Shown: piece by piece, positions 9,001-39,000 of the stretch | How positions within the stretch are numbered: position 1 is the first letter of the stretch | Layout: the number at the start of each line of letters is the position of its first letter | Source of the DNA: an uncultured delta proteobacterium | Lineage (GTDB): Bacteria; Desulfobacterota; Desulfobacteria; Desulfobacterales; JAHEIW01 | Direction: 5' to 3' | NCBI GenBank assembly: GCA_963706575.1 | Contig: CAVPNL010000015.1 | Location: 1-64,000, forward strand | DNA length: 64,000 bases | Program-made: the position numbers

Positions 9001-12000
9001 AGCATGTCGTCTTGAAAATCGGTATCGGCCTTGTCGATTTCATCGATCAGCAGAACCGTGCGAACATCTGAAGTAAACGCCTGCCCGATTTTGCCCATCC
9101 GGATATAATCTTCTATTTTGCTGACATCACGGCTTGAATCGCCAAAGCGGCTGTCGTTGAGCCGGGTCAGCGTGTCGTACTGGTACAGTGCCTCAATGAG
9201 CTTCATGCTGGATTTAACATTCAGTACTATCAAGGGCATCTTCAGGCTTTCGGCGATCGCATGGGCCAGCATGGTTTTACCGGTGCCGGGCTCCCCTTTC
9301 AGCAGCAGCGGCATTTCCAGGGCCATTGAAATATTTACGATCTGAGCCAGTTCTTCATCAAGGATATAACGTGTCGCACCTGTAAAAGATTCATTCGTAT
9401 TTTCAGTCATTCGCTACCTCTCCATATTAAATTTATTAAATTAGCCACAGACCCACACGGACTCACACTAACTTTTGCTCGGCCGACCCTTCCGAGGAAA
9501 GATGTTGTCCGTGTAAGTCTGTGTGTGTCAGTGGCTAATCGACCCTATACAATCGGTTCGAATTGTTGCAGATGATCTGTTCCAACTGGTCGGGATCTTC
9601 CCTGCTACTTTCGTCGTATCCGCTCCGAAACCTCCCGTGTCAATCTCAACGCCTTAATTGCCAGCCCGGTACTTAACGACCCGGCACCGCAGCTGGGAGT
9701 GATCAAAGATTGGGATATCAGTTGATCTGAATCGATACCCAGTTTTTCTATCTGTGCCGCTTTTTGTTGCCACTGATTGAACAGGGACTCGGCGCTTGCG
9801 CTTTCCAGTTCATCTGCCTGCAGGGTCGGCACCATCCCCCAGGCAATAATTTTGCCCGCATCCAAAAATGCCTTGATCTGATCTGAATACAGGATAAACC
9901 GGTCAAAATAGGAATAGGCGTCAAAGCTGACGATATCGGCAGCTGAATCCAGAACCAGCGACCAGTCCGTATTGGCACAAACATGCACCCCGGCGAGACC
10001 GCCTTCCGCATGCACGGCGGCAATAACCTCTTCAAGGCTTTGGACAATTCCATCCCGCGAAATACTGATAAACTCGGATGATCCAAAACCGGACAGGGCG
10101 GGCTCATCGAAGAAAATAATGACCGGACAACCAAAACAGCTTAATTGCTGTACCTGCCAGCGAGATTTCAACGCCAGCAATTTCACAGCGGCATCCTTTA
10201 TCTGTTCATCGTAAATAATGGCCTTTTTGTTTTGATCCGATATTCCGGTACAGAAGGTAAATGGCCCGGTAACCTGGCCCTTGACCGCAACCGGGGGAGC
10301 GGCAAGGCGCTTTAGACGCTCAATAAAAATAAAAAAACCCCTGGCAGTGTCCTCACTCAATACAAACCTGGACTCAGACAGGTCGGTGTGGCCTTCCACA
10401 ACAGCCATATAGTCCTCGTAGAACTCTAATATGTCTTTATCAAAATCATCCTGATCGGTATCCATGTATACCCTGTCTCCGGTCGAGCAAATTCCCGGTA
10501 ACCCCGGCATGAATTGGGGGATCATTCCTTCTTCTCTGTGCGCCGGAAGCTGAATCCACAGGGGAATCTGTGGCGAATGTTCCAATACAAGCTCACAGGC
10601 CTCGACATGATCCGTCAGCGGCAGACTACCGATCAGCGCCGGAAGGCCCCGGGGGCGAAACAGGTTGTCCATGATTGCTCCAAATGACATTTGTTAGGGC
10701 ATTTAAGTGAATGAGCCCTCTGAATATGAAATCCGGTATTAAATTACAATTTAAACTTAGAAAGTTAGCACGTGCGTTTTCGTTTTTCAATAATTAGATA
10801 CAGATTCTTGTTCTGCGGTTGCATCTGAAATGATTGACACAAAAATAGGCCGATGTTATAGTCAGATTCCCATTTGGGGCAGGTTTAAATTTCGGCGATG
10901 GATTAATAAAAGGATCAAAAGGTTACCGTGGCTGATATCATCTCTCTTGATAAAAAGCTCGATCTGGCCAAAGACAAAAAAGCGGCTTTAATTAGAAGGC
11001 GCAAGGTATTGGCCGTACAAAAGGTATTTCAGTGTACCCATTGCTCGCTGAAATGCGAAAAATGTGGCACCCAAATCGAGCATGACCCTGGCGCCGGTGA
11101 AAAGCATCGCCGAAATCTAAGAGTTCCCTACAACTTCTGTAAGGGATGCTCTGAAGAATATTTGGAGTATATCGAACGCTTAAAGGGCCGGGAGGATTCT
11201 GACTGTTACTGGCACAACGAGGCCTGGATCGATGCCTGGGCGAAATGGATTGCATATCAAAGCAGTGTTGACCGCTATATCAAATCAAAAGAATTCAAAC
11301 AGCTGCTCGATGAACTGAAACAAGCAAGGCCCGAATAATTAGGAGGTATTATGTTTGGAATTGGCATGCCGGAACTGATTATCATACTGGTAATCATTCT
11401 GATTATATTTGGCGCCGGGAAACTGCCTGAAATCGGTGCAGGAATGGGTAAGGCCATCCGAAATTTCAAGGGTGAGTCAGACGAGGAAGAAAAGAAAGAT
11501 CCCGAAAAAATTGAAGAGGAAAAAAAGGAATAGAATCCAAAGCTACCTTAAACCGCAGCCGGCCCCACAGCGCAAGTCACCGTTTAACACACCCAACCTC
11601 AGACCTAAAATGAGCGATTGCCGATCTTATGCTGCCCGAGGCGGATCTTCGATCTCGACATCACTCCTTATTAGAACCCATCTGAAAAATAGGATTCACT
11701 GAACCCTGCGTCGGCAAAACGCAATCATTGATTTTATTTGCAGCGCGCCTATTCAGGGTTGAGCGTGGTTTTGAGCTCGCGAGTAAGAAGGGGTACAATT
11801 TCAAAAAGATCCCCCACAATTCCATAGTCGCAGTGCTGCATCATGGCGGCCTGAGGGTCGGTGTTGATGGCAACAACTACTCCGGATGTCTTCATACCGG
11901 CAAAATGCTGGACCGAACCCGAGATCCCACAGGCGATGTAAAGATTTGGGCTCACCGTCGTCCCCGTTTGGCCCACTTGCATCGAATGGGGGACCCAGCC

Positions 12001-36000: not shown

Positions 36001-39000
36001 GCAGCGTTAAGCACGTGCGAATAAGAACCATGGGTATTTTCACTGGCCAGCTCCCCGTCGCGGTAAATCGGCTCATCATGGTAAATCAGCGGTTCAGCAT
36101 CTTCCAGGGTAAATATGACCAACTTGCGTTCCGGTTGAGTTTTCAGTTTCGCTGCCAGGGCTTCACGGCCAATAAAATCTTCCTTATCCATTTTTACGCA
36201 AAATCCCAGACCGGCCTCAAACGGGGTGTCGTCCGGCGTAATATCAGCGCCCCAATGCTTATACCCCTTCTCCAGGCGCAGCGAGTCGAGCGCATGCAAT
36301 CCAACCAGTTTTAGGTTAAATTCCTCACCGGCTTCCACCAGGGCATCAAATACATTCAACGAAAACTCCGTCGGAATGTAAAGCTCCCATCCCAGCTCAC
36401 CGACAAATGACATTCTAACCGCCAGCGGTCGGGCGTCGGCCACATCGATTTCCTGGGCGCTGGCAAAAGGAAAGGCCTCATTTGAAAGATCCGCATCCGT
36501 CAGGTTCGCAAGAAGGTCTCTGGATCGCGGGCCCATGACCGCCAGCATGGTGTAGGCTGAGGTCACATCGGTTAAAATCGCATGGGCATCATCCTTGAGG
36601 TGACGTTGAATCCAGTCGAAATCCCGCGGTCCGGTAGCCCCCGGGGTGACAATAAAGTATTTGTCCTGAGCCAGGCGGGTTACCGTAAGGTCGGATTCGA
36701 TACCGCCCCTTTCATTTAACATCTGGGTATAAACGACTTTACCGACCGGCACATCCACATCATTGGCACACAGGGCCTGCAGCACCTGCATGGCATCGCG
36801 GCCCTGAAGCAGAAAATTGGCCATGGAAGACAGATCGTAAACCCCGACATTTTCGCGGATTGCCATGTGCTCTGCGGCCGAATATTCAAACCAATTCTGT
36901 CGTCCCCAGGCGTATTCATATTCGGCTTTCACGCCCTCGGGTGCAAACCAGTTGGCGCGCTCCCAGCCGGCCACAACCCCGAAACAAGCGCCGCGCGCTG
37001 CCAGGCGGTCATGAAAAGGCGTACAGCGAACGTTGCGGGAGGTTTTGGGCTGTTTGAAAGGCCAATGGTCGGCATATAGATTGCCAACCGCCTCGGTGGT
37101 GCGATTATACAGATAACGGTGATTGGCCTGCCAGGGATAAAACCGCCGAATATCAACCGACGACAAATCCTCCTCCGGATACCCCTGAACGATCCACTGC
37201 GCCAGGGCGCGTCCGGCGCCACCGGCGCTGGTGATTCCCACCGAATTCATTCCAGCGGCAACGAAAAAGTTCTTCACCCCGGGGGCCTCCCCGAGCATGT
37301 AAGCGGTATCCGGCGTAAAGCTTTCAGGTACGGTCGTTAAGCTGTTGATTTCGGCATCCTCAAAAGCGGGCACGCGCTTGATGGCGTTGTTCATGAAAAT
37401 CTCGCATTGATCCCAGTCCTCCTGCAGCTGGGTGTATGCAAATTCCTCCGGAATCCCCTCCATACCCCAGGGTTTTGCCACGGGTTCGAATCCGCCCATG
37501 AGCAAACCGCCCATCTCTTCCTTGATATAGATATAACCGTCCATATCCCGCAAATAGGGCATGCCTTTATAGGTTCCCTCGATCGGATTGGTGGCTAGGT
37601 GCATGTGCTCGGCTGCATGCAGTGGAATACTGACATCGACCATTTTCCCGACTTCCCGGGCCCACATGCCGGCGCAATTTACCAGATATTCACAGGTAAT
37701 TTCGCCCTGATCGGTGCTGACGCCGGCAATGGCACCTTTTTTAAGTTGGATATCGGTAACCTTGACCCCTTCAATCAGGCTGGCCCCTCCCGTGCGGGCG
37801 CCTTTGGCCAAAGCCTGGGTGGTATCCTCCGGGTTCGTGAAACCGTCATTTGGTTGATACCAGGCCGCCACAAGATCGTCGGTGTGCAGGAGCGGAAACA
37901 GCTTCTTGGCATCGTCAAGGCTGATTTCTTCCATCTCAATTCCGAATGCGTGTGCCATGGCCATCGAGCGACTGAATTCACTCTTGCGCGCTTTTGTCTG
38001 CGCGACGCGGATTGATCCGGGGCGCTGGTAGCCGGTGGGCTGCCCCGTTTCTTCTTCCAGGCGTGAATACAGATCCGCGCCGTAAACGGCCAGTTTGGTC
38101 AGGGCGCTGGTCGACCACAGTTGCCCCAACAGACCGGCAGCCGCCCAGGAAGTTCCGGATGCGATCGTTTTGCGCTCGAGCAGCGCCACATCTTTCCAGC
38201 CAAGTTTACAGAGATGGTAGGCAACACTGCAGCCGACAATTCCGCCGCCGATGATAACGACCTGGGCCTGGGTGGGTATTTTTCCGGGCATTACAACCTC
38301 CTTTTTGTTCTTTTATCTTGTATGGTGTCCCACAAGAAATTTACAAATACGGTTTTAGGTGTCAGCAAGTAGGGCGGGCCTCTGCGCCCGCCGGTCAGAG
38401 GTCGGCACAGAGGCCGACCCTACTTTCATTTTTACCATCTGTCTTCTGAAACCTGAACACTGACACCTGAAACCATAGACGGGGTTATGCATAGCATCCC
38501 ATCTTCATCTTGCCAATATCTAATAGTGTTTCGTCAGGTTTTCCCTTTCGGAAGGTCTTTCTGCATATGCATTTCGCGCAACTCCTGTTTGAGGATCTTG
38601 CCGGTTTTGGTCATGGGCATCTGCCCGATGAATTCAACCTCTCACGCAGAGCCTGCCCCCGTGTAGATGGGGGCGGGAGTCCAGTTCAAGGACGCCTGGA
38701 TTCCCGCCTGCGCGGGAATGACAGATCGGCAGTTGTTCGATTTCATTTTTGTGAGCGCGATTTCTTTTTCATTTCCGTCAGTTTTTGGGTTACAAACCTT
38801 TCTTGATTCCCCGCTTTGATACAGGCCAGCAAATGCTCGGCCTCGAGCGCCAGAATCTGCTCAAAACTGGAGTGGAGTCCTTCATCCAGCGCCATGCGGG
38901 AAAGCTTAAGGGATAAGGGTGAGTTGCGGCCAATGCGTTCACACATATTCAGAGCCGCATCCAGAAGTTGGGTGTCAGCGACAACCTGGTTGACCAGTCC

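What a model noticed while it worked through the whole genome (the two positions that open the first line are those of the whole stretch)
11749..38291. Gene set for full stepwise demethylation of glycine betaine to glycine in a strict anaerobe
One 27-kb stretch holds a glycine-betaine:corrinoid methyltransferase (MtgB type) with its corrinoid protein and methylcorrinoid:THF methyltransferase, next to a full-length dimethylglycine-dehydrogenase homolog with its own ETF pair and a FadF-like Fe-S oxidoreductase, a second DMGDH-like enzyme, and a four-subunit sarcosine-oxidase-type enzyme with a second ETF pair. I read it as a hybrid pathway in which the first methyl of betaine leaves by the anaerobic corrinoid route and the second and third by flavin dehydrogenases of the 'aerobic' type that here hand electrons to ETF and on to sulfate respiration, so that betaine is mineralised instead of ending at dimethylglycine. 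That would make s [...]
Evidence so far: Swiss-Prot best hits: g04471 49% id full length to D. hafniense MtgB; g04477 45% to a methylamine corrinoid protein; g04476 40% to E. limosum methylcorrinoid:THF methyltransferase; g04472 36% over 795 aa to rat DMGDH; g04473/74 ETF; g04475 35% to FadF; g04481 43% to 4-methylaminobutanoate oxidase; g04469/68/67 37/39/31% to SoxB/SoxD/SoxA, g04466 GCV_T 213 aa; g04463/62 second ETF pair; HexR-type regulator g04470 between the divergent operons. Genome otherwise that of a sulfate reducer (dsrAB, aprAB, qmo, Wood-Ljungdahl genes; calls 25-29). Only 1 paper holds dimethylglycine dehydrogenase + sulfate-reducing + glycine betaine + sarcosine. Dimethylglycine as end product in Desulfobacterium is r [...]
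(Added by a program. Inside this text positions count along the whole contig: contig position 1 is position 1 of the stretch shown here. "Call 12" and the like, gene names such as g00115 and contig names such as C1 are that model's own, and its searches are not shown. The text may have been shortened before it was handed on; [...] marks where a part breaks off. The agent that wrote the report below was given it as the finding of a first reader that could run no searches.)

Follow-up and report, generated by a model that had tools for sequence, protein, structure and literature searches.

The report
Betaine-to-glycine demethylation genes in sulfate reducer
A sediment sulfate-reducing bacterium carries, side by side, a vitamin-B12 enzyme set that removes the first methyl group of the osmolyte glycine betaine and flavin enzymes with their own electron carriers that could remove the other two without oxygen, so such bacteria may fully consume a compound they were thought to degrade only partly.

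Summary
The gene content is real and lies at the stated coordinates. The region holds:
- an MtgB-type methyltransferase with the published glycine-betaine-binding residues, plus MtgC and MtgA
- two full-length DMGDH-family enzymes
- a SoxBDAG-type set
- two EtfBA pairs
- a membrane Fe-S/CCG oxidoreductase of the ETF:menaquinone (EMO/EtfD/HdrF) type

The arrangement is not chance. DMGDH1 orthologs at 70-95% identity occur in 58 Desulfobacterales loci. Most have EtfBA directly downstream (37 of 47). Many also carry the EMO gene, Sox genes or MtgB-like genes.

New here: both DMGDH clades have lost the histidine that binds FAD covalently in mammalian and Arthrobacter enzymes. DMGDH1 has Met/Leu in 56 of 56 orthologs, and DMGDH2 has Ala in 19 of 19. 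Aerobe-type relatives keep His (14 of 14).

Two cultured species, Desulfocicer vacuolatum and Desulfamplus magnetovallimortis, carry MtgB, DMGDH1 and SoxA orthologs, so the idea can be tested.

Substrates, oxygen independence and expression remain unproven. The corrinoid-plus-flavin route was published in 2025 for aerobic marine bacteria. This scan also noted a similar island before on other DNA (e1-1457404). My verdict is a new anaerobic variant of a known pathway.

The parts
22541..23971 (+). MtgB-type glycine betaine:corrinoid methyltransferase (non-pyrrolysine MttB family)
   Evidence: Pfam MTTB E 7e-154. PDB 9yce/2qne D. hafniense MtgB E 1e-144. The published betaine-binding residues Y97/R312/H348/F356 (PMC13080624) correspond to Y94/R309/H345/Y353 here.
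31892..32530 (+). MtgC-like corrinoid protein
   Evidence: Pfam B12-binding and B12-binding_2. The best NCBIfam hit is the glycine-betaine-specific corrinoid protein MtgC, 215.9 bits, below its cutoff of 370.
31037..31834 (+). MtgA-like methylcorrinoid:tetrahydrofolate methyltransferase
   Evidence: Pfam Pterin_bind. NCBIfam PRK07535 scores 361 bits, above its cutoff of 259.
24370..26787 (+). DMGDH1, a dimethylglycine-dehydrogenase-family flavoenzyme with a folate domain that lacks the flavinylation histidine (Leu46)
   Evidence: Pfam DAO+FAO_M+GCV_T+GCV_T_C. PDB rat and human DMGDH E about 1e-175. The dyad H225/Y254 is conserved. The His91/His48 position is Leu here and Met/Leu in 56 of 56 orthologs.
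26835..28671 (+). EtfB1 (26835-27620) and EtfA1 (27709-28671), the ETF pair dedicated to DMGDH1
   Evidence: Pfam ETF/ETF_alpha. The best solved relatives are human and Paracoccus ETF. An ETF pair lies directly downstream of DMGDH1 in 37 of 47 loci with enough flank.
28916..30925 (+).
   Evidence: Two CCG domains and a 4Fe-4S dicluster. N-terminal hydrophobic segments and two CxxCxxCxxxC motifs. PDB 9ojn 'Iron-sulfur-binding reductase' E 1e-123. Present downstream in 18 of 37 loci with enough flank.
15685..21060 (-). SoxB (19837-21060), SoxD (19249-19509), SoxA (16334-19252) and SoxG-like (15685-16332): a heterotetrameric sarcosine-oxidase-type enzyme
   Evidence: Pfam and NCBIfam match all four subunits, all below the NCBIfam cutoffs. 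SoxB against TSOX beta E 1e-87, with His173 conserved. SoxA carries GCV_T and GCV_T_C.
15154..15627 (-). YbaK/ProX-like aminoacyl-tRNA deacylase-domain protein inside the sox-etf operon
   Evidence: Pfam tRNA_edit E 1e-36. An ortholog lies in 14 of 58 related loci. Its role is unknown.
13698..15035 (-). DAO-family FAD oxidoreductase (445 aa) of unknown substrate, always next to EtfB2A2
   Evidence: Pfam DAO E 4e-47. It gives only weak matches to glycine and sarcosine oxidases. The atlas clusters are unnamed. It lies in 14 of 58 loci, and 55-58% identical copies sit in SAR324 loci.
11749..13503 (-). EtfB2 (12736-13503; the ORF runs on to 13686) and EtfA2 (11749-12717), the second ETF pair
   Evidence: Pfam ETF/ETF_alpha. 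The likely start is the ATG at 13503. The beta subunit scores about equally with bifurcating and canonical ETFs.
21589..22476 (+). RpiR/HexR-type regulator between the divergent operons
   Evidence: Pfam HTH_6+SIS. An ortholog lies in 13 of 58 loci. A 17-nt tandem repeat sits at 21506-21541 just upstream.
32827..34095 (+). MFS transporter
   Evidence: Pfam MFS_1 E 3e-75. It is conserved only in the closest locus, L004.
34110..35546 (+). MttB2, a second non-Pyl MttB-family methyltransferase without the betaine-binding residues
   Evidence: Pfam MTTB E 9e-93. The tetrad positions read L-F-D-G, the same as in 6 orthologs next to DMGDH1 in other loci.
35847..38291 (-). DMGDH2, a second DMGDH-family enzyme with Ala at the flavinylation site
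   Evidence: Pfam DAO+FAO_M+GCV_T+GCV_T_C. PDB DMGDH E about 1e-146. Ala is found in 19 of 19 orthologs from other genomes that cover the site.

Best explanation
This is a catabolic island for oxygen-independent stepwise demethylation of glycine betaine to glycine. It probably also takes imported dimethylglycine and sarcosine.

Step 1, inferred from homology and conserved binding residues: MtgB moves one methyl of betaine to the corrinoid protein MtgC. MtgA passes it to tetrahydrofolate (THF). The products are dimethylglycine and methyl-THF.

Step 2, inferred: DMGDH1 oxidises dimethylglycine to sarcosine and hands the C1 unit to THF as methylene-THF. Its FAD is predicted to be non-covalently bound. 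The electrons go to EtfB1A1, then to the membrane Fe-S/CCG oxidoreductase, then to the menaquinone pool.

Step 3, inferred, with the weakest assignment: the SoxBDAG-type complex and/or DMGDH2 converts sarcosine to glycine plus methylene-THF. The electrons go to EtfB2A2.

Step 4, inferred from genome content: glycine goes to the glycine cleavage system. The C1-THF units are oxidised through the reversed methyl branch of the Wood-Ljungdahl pathway. The reducing equivalents go to sulfate reduction.

Shown here: the genes, their domains, key residues and conserved synteny. Not shown: any substrate, the flavin linkage, the electron path, and use under anoxia.
For: - MtgB matches D. hafniense MtgB at E 1e-144. 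It keeps three of the four experimentally defined betaine-binding residues, and the fourth is an aromatic F to Y change.
- MttB-family neighbours with Y-R-H-Y/F lie beside DMGDH1 orthologs in 15 Desulfobacterales loci.
- MtgC and MtgA are in the same operon.
- DMGDH1 has the full DMGDH architecture and the His/Tyr dyad.
- There are 58 loci with 70-95% identical orthologs, all labelled Desulfobacterales-type or unclassified MAGs. The next relatives are only 43-46% identical.
- In these loci EtfBA is directly downstream in 37 of 47, and the EMO-type gene follows in 18 of 37. Sox genes lie in 14 of 58 and MtgA or MtgC in 18 of 58.
- The flavinylation His is Met/Leu in 56 of 56 clade members and His in 14 of 14 outgroup sequences. 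In DMGDH2 it is Ala in 19 of 19 orthologs.
- A covalent 8-alpha linkage raises flavin potential (PMC5082570, section 14 read). Its loss therefore fits delivery to a low-potential chain.
- The EMO-type protein has a membrane domain, two 4Fe-4S motifs and two CCG domains. That matches the ETF:methylmenaquinone oxidoreductase of Syntrophus (preprint abstract) and HdrF3-etfAB of D. autotrophicum (PMC2702500 passages).
- In D. vacuolatum the orthologous operon also carries a Liv-type ABC importer and a GcvT-SHMT fusion gene.
- The genome has GcvP, CdhC, dsrA and aprA.
- The same genome holds a second MtgB (60% identity, YRHY) next to a Liv-type importer.
- Contigs from four RNA libraries of two sediment studies cover 26-29 of 30 bins of 16334-36333 at 92-99% identity. 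No DNA-carry-over control was run.
Against: - There are no experimental data for any step.
- Cultured Desulfobacterium strains are reported to stop at dimethylglycine (Heijthuijsen and Hansen, as cited in PMC6716910, passages read).
- DMGDH-family enzymes act on many N-methyl amines, and the island holds MttB paralogs with other pocket residues.
- Only 15 of the related loci show an MtgB-type gene within the held flanks.
- Only 2 of 10 other genomes of the same genus have the DMGDH1 ortholog.
- A third DMGDH paralog in this genome (C4) keeps the His, so loss of His is not a general need of the organism.
- SoxB keeps His173, the covalent-FMN site of the oxygen-using enzyme.
- No BCCT or OpuAC-type betaine transporter was found in this 91.8%-complete genome.
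- A heme-copper oxidase and cytochrome bd lie on the same contig.
- mtgB and DMGDH1 are separated by 398 bp that hold a dispersed repeat.
- The type of ETF2 is unresolved.
Confidence: 0.6

Rival explanations
1. The island is a general N-methyl-amine island. The flavin dehydrogenases mainly process demethylation products of other quaternary amines (proline betaine, butyrobetaine, carnitine or choline type) or sarcosine from creatine. Betaine itself still ends at dimethylglycine.
For: - The genome holds 11-12 MttB-family genes, and 4 or 5 of them lie in the window.
- MttB2 (L-F-D-G) and MttB3 (G-L-G-L) lack the betaine residues, and MttB2 orthologs sit next to DMGDH1 in 6 loci.
- A creatinase/prolidase-like M24 gene lies at 44115-45305, an M19 dipeptidase at 39645-40634 and an enoyl-CoA hydratase at 38743-39537.
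- Further MttB/flavoprotein clusters lie on C1 and C4.
Against: - The MttB gene directly upstream of DMGDH1 is the one with the betaine-binding tetrad. Such MtgB-type genes recur next to DMGDH1 in 15 loci.
- DMGDH1 is more similar to mammalian DMGDH (E 1e-175) than DMGDH2 is.
- This rival largely adds to the main reading and does not exclude it.
Confidence: 0.25
2. The flavoenzymes work only when traces of oxygen are present, either as oxidases or through quinol oxidases. The pathway is then a micro-oxic trait and is not coupled to sulfate respiration.
For: - A heme-copper oxidase (C15:208261-209508) and cytochrome bd (C15:266056-267339) lie on the same contig.
- SoxB keeps the FMN-linking His173 of the oxidase.
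- The predicted chain ends in the quinone pool, which any terminal reductase could drain.
Against: - Each flavoenzyme set has its own ETF pair.
- DMGDH1 has an EMO-type partner, known from strictly anaerobic syntrophs and sulfate reducers.
- Both DMGDH clades lack the covalent flavin link found in the oxidase and in the mammalian enzymes.
Confidence: 0.08
3. The cluster does not belong to the sulfate reducer. It would then be a binning or assembly contaminant from an aerobic bacterium.
For: - Genome contamination is estimated at 6.39%.
- The tetranucleotide correlation of C15 with the rest of the genome is 0.979, lower than for most other large contigs.
Against: - A dispersed repeat found in the mtgB-DMGDH1 spacer occurs on 13 other contigs, including C9 (dsrA) and C6 (aprA).
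- Orthologs at 90-91% identity lie in two other genomes of the same genus.
- All close orthologs come from Desulfobacterales-type records, including two isolates.
- MttB paralogs are spread over C1, C12 and C15.
Confidence: 0.02

Closest known systems
MtgB/MtgC/MtgA glycine betaine:THF methyl transfer of Desulfitobacterium hafniense (PDB 2qne/9yce; PMC13080624, abstract and outline read)
   Same: The three-component corrinoid system is the same. MtgB matches at E 1e-144, and the betaine-binding residues are conserved (Y, R, H identical; F to Y).
   Different: In D. hafniense the pathway is described as ending at dimethylglycine. Here the genes are interleaved with DMGDH, ETF and EMO genes. MtgC scores below the NCBIfam MtgC cutoffs.
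MtgBCD(E) followed by dimethylglycine and sarcosine demethylation in aerobic Ruegeria pomeroyi and other marine bacteria (PMC12478193, passages read)
   Same: The hybrid logic is the same: a cobalamin-dependent first demethylation, then flavin and folate enzymes for the next two, with the genes co-located.
   Different: Those organisms are aerobes, their MtgC is of a different lineage, and their system doubles as a methionine synthase. The outgroup DMGDHs (Alphaproteobacteria, SAR324, Woeseiaceae) keep the flavinylation His (14 of 14). No EMO-type gene follows DMGDH in the outgroup loci (0 of 9).
Mammalian DMGDH and SARDH with ETF and ETF:ubiquinone oxidoreductase (PDB 4pab, 5l46; PMC5082570, sections read)
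   Same: The domain architecture, the catalytic dyad, the folate domain and the use of ETF as a client system are shared. DMGDH1 aligns over residues 2-796.
   Different: The covalent His91-FAD link is absent (Leu/Met in DMGDH1, Ala in DMGDH2). The predicted quinone reductase is an HdrD/CCG-type membrane protein, not ETF-QO, and the predicted quinone is menaquinone.
ETF:methylmenaquinone oxidoreductase (EMO) of Syntrophus aciditrophicus and HdrF3-etfAB of Desulfobacterium autotrophicum (preprint 10.64898/2026.08.18.745454, abstract read; PMC2702500, passages read)
   Same: Both have a membrane domain, 4Fe-4S clusters and CCG domains, and both are encoded next to etfBA.
   Different: The known clients are acyl-CoA dehydrogenases of beta-oxidation. 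Here the neighbour is an amine dehydrogenase. This genome has a second copy next to another ETF pair on C18 (32% identity). Heme ligands were not checked.
Heterotetrameric sarcosine oxidase SoxBDAG (PDB 2gag, 1x31/3ad7)
   Same: All four subunits are present in one operon, the beta-subunit His173 is conserved, and the alpha subunit has the folate-binding GCV_T domain.
   Different: All four subunits score below the NCBIfam subfamily cutoffs. The genes sit in one run with an ETF pair, a DAO-family flavoprotein and a YbaK-like gene. The acceptor is presumed to be ETF, not oxygen.
Stepwise anaerobic betaine demethylation in 'Candidatus Formimonas warabiya' DCMF (PMC9768040, passages read)
   Same: An anaerobe goes beyond dimethylglycine.
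   Different: That organism is proposed to use methyltransferases for two steps and then sarcosine reductase (Grd). Here no full-length GrdB-family gene was found, and flavin dehydrogenases are present instead.

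Membership tests
MtgB (glycine betaine:corrinoid methyltransferase, non-Pyl MttB superfamily) | Full-length MttB TIM-barrel domain without an in-frame amber codon | tested here: met
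   Pfam MTTB covers residues 4-472 of 476, E 7e-154. The ORF is uninterrupted.
MtgB (glycine betaine:corrinoid methyltransferase, non-Pyl MttB superfamily) | Betaine-binding residues Y97, R312, H348, F356 (PMC13080624) | tested here: met
   They correspond to Y94, R309, H345 and Y353: three identical, and F to Y is aromatic. MttB2 and MttB3 of the window lack them.
MtgB (glycine betaine:corrinoid methyltransferase, non-Pyl MttB superfamily) | Cognate corrinoid protein and methylcorrinoid:THF methyltransferase encoded nearby | tested here: met
   mtgA lies at 31037-31834 and mtgC at 31892-32530 on the same strand.
MtgB (glycine betaine:corrinoid methyltransferase, non-Pyl MttB superfamily) | Methylation of cob(I)alamin with glycine betaine | not testable with these tools
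   This needs an enzyme assay.
Dimethylglycine dehydrogenase (DMGDH/DMGO family) | DAO FAD domain, FAO_M, and GCV_T/GCV_T_C folate domain in one chain | tested here: met
   One search shows this for both DMGDH1 and DMGDH2.
Dimethylglycine dehydrogenase (DMGDH/DMGO family) | Catalytic His/Tyr dyad (His225/Tyr259 of Arthrobacter DMGO) | tested here: met
   In DMGDH1, H225 and Y254 align with them. In DMGDH2 the same positions carry H and Y in the alignment to human DMGDH.
Dimethylglycine dehydrogenase (DMGDH/DMGO family) | Covalent 8-alpha-N3-histidyl FAD (human His91, DMGO His48) | tested here: not met
   The position is Leu46 in DMGDH1 and Ala50 in DMGDH2. It is Met/Leu in 56 of 56 DMGDH1 orthologs and Ala in 19 of 19 DMGDH2 orthologs.
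Dimethylglycine dehydrogenase (DMGDH/DMGO family) | Dimethylglycine as substrate and ETF as acceptor | not testable with these tools
   Only gene adjacency to MtgB and EtfBA is available.
Heterotetrameric sarcosine oxidase (SoxBDAG) | Beta, delta, alpha and gamma subunits encoded together | tested here: met
Heterotetrameric sarcosine oxidase (SoxBDAG) | Scores reach the curated NCBIfam subfamily cutoffs | tested here: not met
   soxA scores 699.5 against a cutoff of 1164, soxB 399.1 against 529.45, and soxD 69.6 against 116.5. No soxG model matched the 215-aa protein.
Heterotetrameric sarcosine oxidase (SoxBDAG) | Beta-subunit His173 (covalent FMN site; the role is recalled, not taken from a call) | tested here: met
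   The His aligns with chain position 173 of 2gag_B.
ETF:menaquinone oxidoreductase (EMO/EtfD/HdrF type) | N-terminal membrane domain, ferredoxin-like 2x[4Fe-4S] motifs, two CCG domains, and a gene next to etfBA | tested here: met
   PDB 9ojn matches at E 1e-123.
ETF:menaquinone oxidoreductase (EMO/EtfD/HdrF type) | Heme b ligands and quinone reduction | not tested
   The histidines in the membrane part were listed but not mapped to a structure.
Canonical (non-bifurcating) ETF | Closer to AMP-containing group 1 ETFs than to bifurcating ETFs | tested here: inconclusive
   ETF1: human alpha 199 bits against CarE 166, and human beta 117 against CarD 97. For the ETF2 beta subunit the order is reversed by a small margin: CarD 107.7 against Paracoccus 99.

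The most novel reading that the evidence does not exclude
Desulfobacterales possess a dedicated, oxygen-independent system for dimethylglycine and sarcosine oxidation. It is built from DMGDH-family enzymes that have given up the covalent flavin link, and it is wired through private ETFs and an EMO-type complex into the menaquinone pool.

With this system, marine sulfate reducers could mineralise glycine betaine completely. They could also scavenge the dimethylglycine that methanogens, acetogens and other sulfate reducers excrete. Betaine would then be a contested substrate and not a 'non-competitive' methane precursor.

A side branch: the conserved trio of DAO-family flavoprotein, EtfB2 and EtfA2 could be an electron-confurcating amine dehydrogenase analogous to the lactate dehydrogenase-ETF complex.
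Probability: 0.4. Interest if true: 0.75.

Novelty: new variant of a known kind. Interest (0 to 1): 0.62.

Why it matters
Glycine betaine is one of the most abundant osmolytes in marine sediments and a major precursor of methane. The papers I read state that anaerobes either reduce it to trimethylamine or remove a single methyl group and leave dimethylglycine (PMC6716910, PMC8547467, passages).

A conserved gene set in at least 58 Desulfobacterales species argues that sulfate reducers can take all three methyl groups and the glycine backbone. That would change carbon, nitrogen and methane budgets for this compound.

For enzymology, it offers natural DMGDH variants without covalent flavin. It also offers a non-acyl-CoA client for the ETF:menaquinone oxidoreductase.

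Two cultured strains carry the genes, so the question can be tested directly.

Tried and rejected
- **Shared operator.** I looked for a motif linking the operons by 9-mer comparison of 11 intergenic regions. The shared stretches are genome-wide dispersed repeats: the 202-nt element at 24087-24288 has copies on 14 contigs, and CTAAAATGCCTAAA occurs 182 times in the genome. The 17-nt tandem repeat upstream of rpiR occurs nowhere else in the window. There is no regulon evidence.
- **Betaine transporters.** No BCCT and no OpuAC family match was found in the 91.8%-complete genome. A Liv-type ABC importer next to a second MtgB gene, outside the window, is the best candidate.
- **Reductive route.** Only three partial GRDB matches of 38-46 bits in ORFs of about 170 aa were found. 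No betaine, sarcosine or glycine reductase B component was found with this query.
- **DAO-family protein 13698-15035.** PDB gives only weak glycine and sarcosine oxidase matches and no FixC match. The atlas gives unnamed DAO clusters. Its identity is unresolved.
- **ETF type (bifurcating or not).** PDB score ranking cannot settle it for ETF2.
- **RNA evidence.** The laid records are contigs from RNA libraries, and no silent control stretch could be laid because the cap is one call. Gaps in cover and depth differences were not interpreted.
- **Literature.**
  - No paper holds 'dimethylglycine dehydrogenase' + 'sulfate reduc' + 'electron transfer flavoprotein' + 'glycine betaine'.
  - None holds 'sarcosine oxidase' + 'Desulfobacter' + 'glycine betaine' + 'dimethylglycine'.
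  - None holds 'Olavius' + 'glycine betaine' + 'sarcosine' + 'symbiont'.
  - 'dimethylglycine dehydrogenase' + 'Desulfobacter' gave 2 irrelevant animal studies.
  - The search was too loose and gave nothing useful.
  - The 1989 Heijthuijsen and Hansen papers were not read. I know them only through citations.
- **Contig chimerism.** Considered and rejected.
- **Pyrrolysine reading of the gene at 58716-60213.** One frame does not read through with TAG=O. The two halves lie in different frames.

Full report
**Observation**

ORF listing, Pfam and NCBIfam give two gene runs and one separate gene.

- A minus-strand run: soxB, soxD, soxA, a soxG-like GCV_T protein, a YbaK-like deacylase-domain gene, a 445-aa DAO-family flavoprotein, etfB2 and etfA2.
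- DMGDH2, on the minus strand.

soxD overlaps the start of soxA. EtfB2 most likely starts at the ATG at 13503, not at the TTG of the long ORF.

- MtgB against D. hafniense MtgB, E 1e-144
- DMGDH1 and DMGDH2 against rat and human DMGDH, E about 1e-175 and 1e-146
- SoxB against the beta subunit of heterotetrameric sarcosine oxidase, E 1e-87

**Does the contig belong to a sulfate reducer?**

The window is the first 64 kb of a 529-kb contig (C15) of a 5.67-Mb, 25-contig genome. The genome is rated 91.8% complete with 6.4% contamination. dsrA lies on C9 and aprA on C6.

The tetranucleotide profile of C15 correlates at 0.979 with the rest of the genome. That is a little lower than for most other large contigs. 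Three results outweigh this:
- A 202-nt dispersed repeat in the mtgB-DMGDH1 spacer has copies on 13 other contigs, including C9 and C6.
- Two other genomes of the same genus carry 90-91% identical DMGDH1 orthologs.
- All close orthologs in a one-genome-per-species collection come from Desulfobacterales-type records.

I therefore treat the cluster as part of the sulfate reducer.

**The corrinoid step**

A 2026 paper defined the betaine-binding site of D. hafniense MtgB as Y97, R312, H348 and F356 (PMC13080624, abstract and outline read). In the gap-free alignment these correspond to Y94, R309, H345 and Y353 of the window protein.

The other two MttB-family proteins of the region read L-F-D-G and G-L-G-L at these positions. 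Only the gene directly upstream of DMGDH1 therefore has a betaine-type pocket. MtgA scores above its NCBIfam cutoff. The corrinoid protein is closest to the MtgC models but scores below their cutoffs.

**The flavin steps**

DMGDH1 and DMGDH2 both have the complete DMGDH architecture. DMGDH1 keeps the His/Tyr dyad of Arthrobacter dimethylglycine oxidase, as H225 and Y254.

Both enzymes lack the histidine that carries the covalent FAD in human DMGDH (His91; PMC5082570) and in the Arthrobacter oxidase (chain position 48). DMGDH1 has Leu46 and DMGDH2 has Ala50.

This is a property of each clade and not an accident of this genome:
- Of 56 orthologs at 70% identity or more that cover the site, 53 have Met and 3 have Leu.
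- All 14 outgroup sequences at 43-46% identity (SAR324, Alphaproteobacteria, Woeseiaceae) have His.
- In the DMGDH2 clade, 19 of 19 orthologs from other genomes have Ala. Three of three sequences of a third, 43-46% identical clade have His, as does that clade's member on C4 of this genome.

The human enzyme's covalent FAD sits at -93 mV, and the authors note that 8-alpha linkages raise the potential (PMC5082570, section 14). Losing the link would be expected to lower it. That fits a chain ending in menaquinone, but this is an inference. The His-bearing paralog in the same genome also shows that loss of His is not obligatory for an anaerobe.

**Electron outlet**

EtfB1 and EtfA1 are most similar to human and Paracoccus ETF.

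The next gene encodes a protein with N-terminal hydrophobic segments, two CxxCxxCxxxC motifs and two CCG domains. Its one solved relative is 9ojn, 'Iron-sulfur-binding reductase', E 1e-123. This architecture matches two described proteins:
- the ETF:methylmenaquinone oxidoreductase of Syntrophus aciditrophicus (preprint abstract)
- the HdrF3 protein encoded next to etfAB in Desulfobacterium autotrophicum (PMC2702500, passages)

The genome has a second copy, 32% identical, beside another ETF pair on C18. The copy in the window therefore looks dedicated to this island.

The beta subunit of ETF2 scores marginally higher with bifurcating ETFs than with canonical ones, so its type is open.

**Conservation**

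A scan with DMGDH1 returned 75 loci. Of these, 58 hold an ortholog of 70-95% identity. Among them are Desulfamplus magnetovallimortis, Desulfocicer vacuolatum DSM 3385, Candidatus Desulfobacula maris and the Olavius Delta 1 symbiont.

In these 58 loci:
- An ETF pair follows DMGDH1 directly in 37 of the 47 loci that extend at least 2 kb downstream.
- The EMO-type gene follows in 18 of the 37 loci that extend at least 4.6 kb downstream.
- Within the held flanks, Sox genes occur in 14, the RpiR regulator in 13, the DAO-family gene in 14, the YbaK-like gene in 14, MtgA or MtgC in 18, and some MttB-family gene in 24.

MttB neighbours with the betaine tetrad (Y-R-H-Y/F) occur in 15 Desulfobacterales loci.

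In a sample of 401 genomes of the order, 89 have a DMGDH-family match at E 1e-150 or better. Of those, 39 (this genome included) have a match of 70% identity or more. In the genus itself only 2 of 10 other genomes do. The trait is widespread but accessory.

The two isolates, one complete uncultured Desulfobacterium chromosome and Ca. Desulfobacula maris each have an MtgB ortholog (65-66%) and a SoxA ortholog (65-70%) elsewhere in the genome. The Olavius symbiont has SoxA (75%) but only a 40% MtgB-like match that contains a stop.

In the two isolates the DMGDH1 operon also holds a sigma-54 activator, a Liv-type ABC importer and a universal stress protein. In D. vacuolatum a GcvT-SHMT fusion gene follows. 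That fits glycine as the end of the line.

**Rest of the pathway in this genome**

- A glycine cleavage P protein (C18) and CdhC/AcsB (C16) are present.
- No full-length GrdB-family gene was found.
- No BCCT or OpuAC-type transporter was found.
- 27 kb beyond the window, C15 carries a second MtgB (60% identity, tetrad YRHY) next to a Liv-type ABC importer. That importer is related to the one in the isolates' DMGDH1 operons.
- A heme-copper oxidase and cytochrome bd lie on the same contig. Because the predicted chain ends in the quinone pool, the sequence cannot say which terminal acceptor is used.

**Expression**

Fourteen DNA runs from estuary and marine sediment metagenomes hold 23-62% of the sampled words of the stretch. 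Contigs from four RNA-library runs of two studies cover 26-29 of 30 bins of 16334-36333, mostly at 90-99% identity, so they come from close relatives. This is compatible with transcription in sediments. DNA carry-over was not controlled, so I count it as weak evidence.

**Literature and novelty**

The papers I read describe sulfate reducers as stopping at dimethylglycine (PMC6716910; PMC8547467). A figure legend in PMC8547467 lists soxB and DMGDH among genes in cold-seep mtgB contigs, without interpreting them.

The hybrid corrinoid-then-flavin route was published in 2025 for aerobic marine bacteria (PMC12478193). An anaerobe that goes past dimethylglycine by another route (methyltransferases plus sarcosine reductase) is known (PMC9768040).

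Four targeted searches found no paper linking DMGDH or sarcosine oxidase genes to sulfate reducers. The library does not cover most subscription journals.

This scan noted a similar island earlier in another genome (e1-1457404). That note agrees with my reading but is not independent evidence.

I class the finding as a new anaerobic variant of a known pathway. Its distinctive, testable features are the flavinylation-free DMGDH clades and the dedicated ETF/EMO link.

**Open points**

- Which of DMGDH2, the Sox complex and the 445-aa DAO protein handles sarcosine.
- What MttB2 demethylates.
- Whether ETF2 bifurcates.
- Why a YbaK-like deacylase is conserved in the module.
- Whether the pathway runs under strict anoxia.

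Noticed in passing
window 58716-60213 (-): A pyrrolysine-type trimethylamine methyltransferase gene. The N-terminal part (59245-60213) matches positions 1-289 of the Pyl-MttB model at 405 bits. The C-terminal part carries an in-frame TAG at the expected Pyl position, but it lies in another frame, so there is an apparent frameshift near 59290-59300. A corrinoid protein gene follows at 57963-58616. Many MttB genes with one TAG also occur in D. vacuolatum and related genomes.
   Followed up: partly
window 15154-15627 (-): A stand-alone YbaK/ProX-like aminoacyl-tRNA editing-domain gene sits inside the sox-etf operon, and an ortholog lies in 14 of 58 related loci. One untested idea is that it clears tRNA mischarged with sarcosine or another N-methyl amino acid while these accumulate.
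   Followed up: partly
window 45614-48454 (+): A 946-aa fusion of DUF1638 with hydantoinase/oxoprolinase (ASKHA-type ATPase) domains. Relatives at 34-66% identity lie beside DMGDH1 or MttB genes in 8 other loci. It could be a corrinoid reductive activase of a non-RamA type. I did not search for a canonical RamA.
   Followed up: no
window 24087-24288, 38647-38720, 19676-19727, 38367-38418: GC-rich dispersed repeats of REP or MITE type in intergenic spacers of the island. The 202-nt element has copies on 14 contigs. RNA-library contigs of relatives in two runs skip exactly 24087-24288, so it is an insertion specific to this lineage.
   Followed up: partly
window 41651-43132 (+): MttB3 scores above the curated cutoff of the pyrrolysine-type trimethylamine methyltransferase model (569 against 525 bits) although it has no amber codon. 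Its pocket positions read G-L-G-L. An FMN reductase gene precedes it.
   Followed up: no
window 44115-45305 (-) and 39645-40634 (-): A creatinase/prolidase-type M24 gene and an M19 dipeptidase gene lie in the same island. A creatinase would yield sarcosine from creatine.
   Followed up: no
window 50387-57438: An IclR regulator, a three-subunit 2-oxoacid:ferredoxin oxidoreductase, an HpaB/4-hydroxybutyryl-CoA-dehydratase-family gene (53979-55547), a DUF362 gene and a Glu/Leu/Phe/Val dehydrogenase fragment. This may be a 4-aminobutyrate or 4-hydroxybutyrate type route downstream of amine demethylation.
   Followed up: no
window 3806-5078, 56662-57438, 60517-61293: Several genes look truncated or split: GltD-like Pyr_redox_2 and Fer4_20 in two ORFs, a 258-aa dehydrogenase fragment, and a 258-aa class-V aminotransferase fragment. 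Together with the split MttB gene, this suggests indel errors in the assembly or real pseudogenes.
   Followed up: no
G000 C1:93298-97971 (L104 3298-7971): A 57% identical paralog of MttB2 lies directly after rpsD-rpoA-rplQ. It is followed by a SoxB-like DAO protein, a small Fer2_4 protein and a Pyr_redox_2/SO_alpha_A3/BFD protein without a folate domain. This is a second, different amine dehydrogenase type coupled to an MttB gene.
   Followed up: partly
G000 C4:397000-415000 (L102): The His-bearing third DMGDH paralog lies with a Liv-type ABC importer, a choline/ethanolamine-kinase-like gene, an aminotransferase, two alanine dehydrogenase genes and a GntR regulator. No ETF gene is nearby.
   Followed up: partly
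loci L065, L068, L070, L072, L074, L076 (SAR324): SAR324 genomes show the run DAO-family gene, soxD, soxA, soxB, etfB, etfA, DMGDH. ETF-linked Sox-type enzymes are therefore not confined to anaerobes.
   Followed up: no
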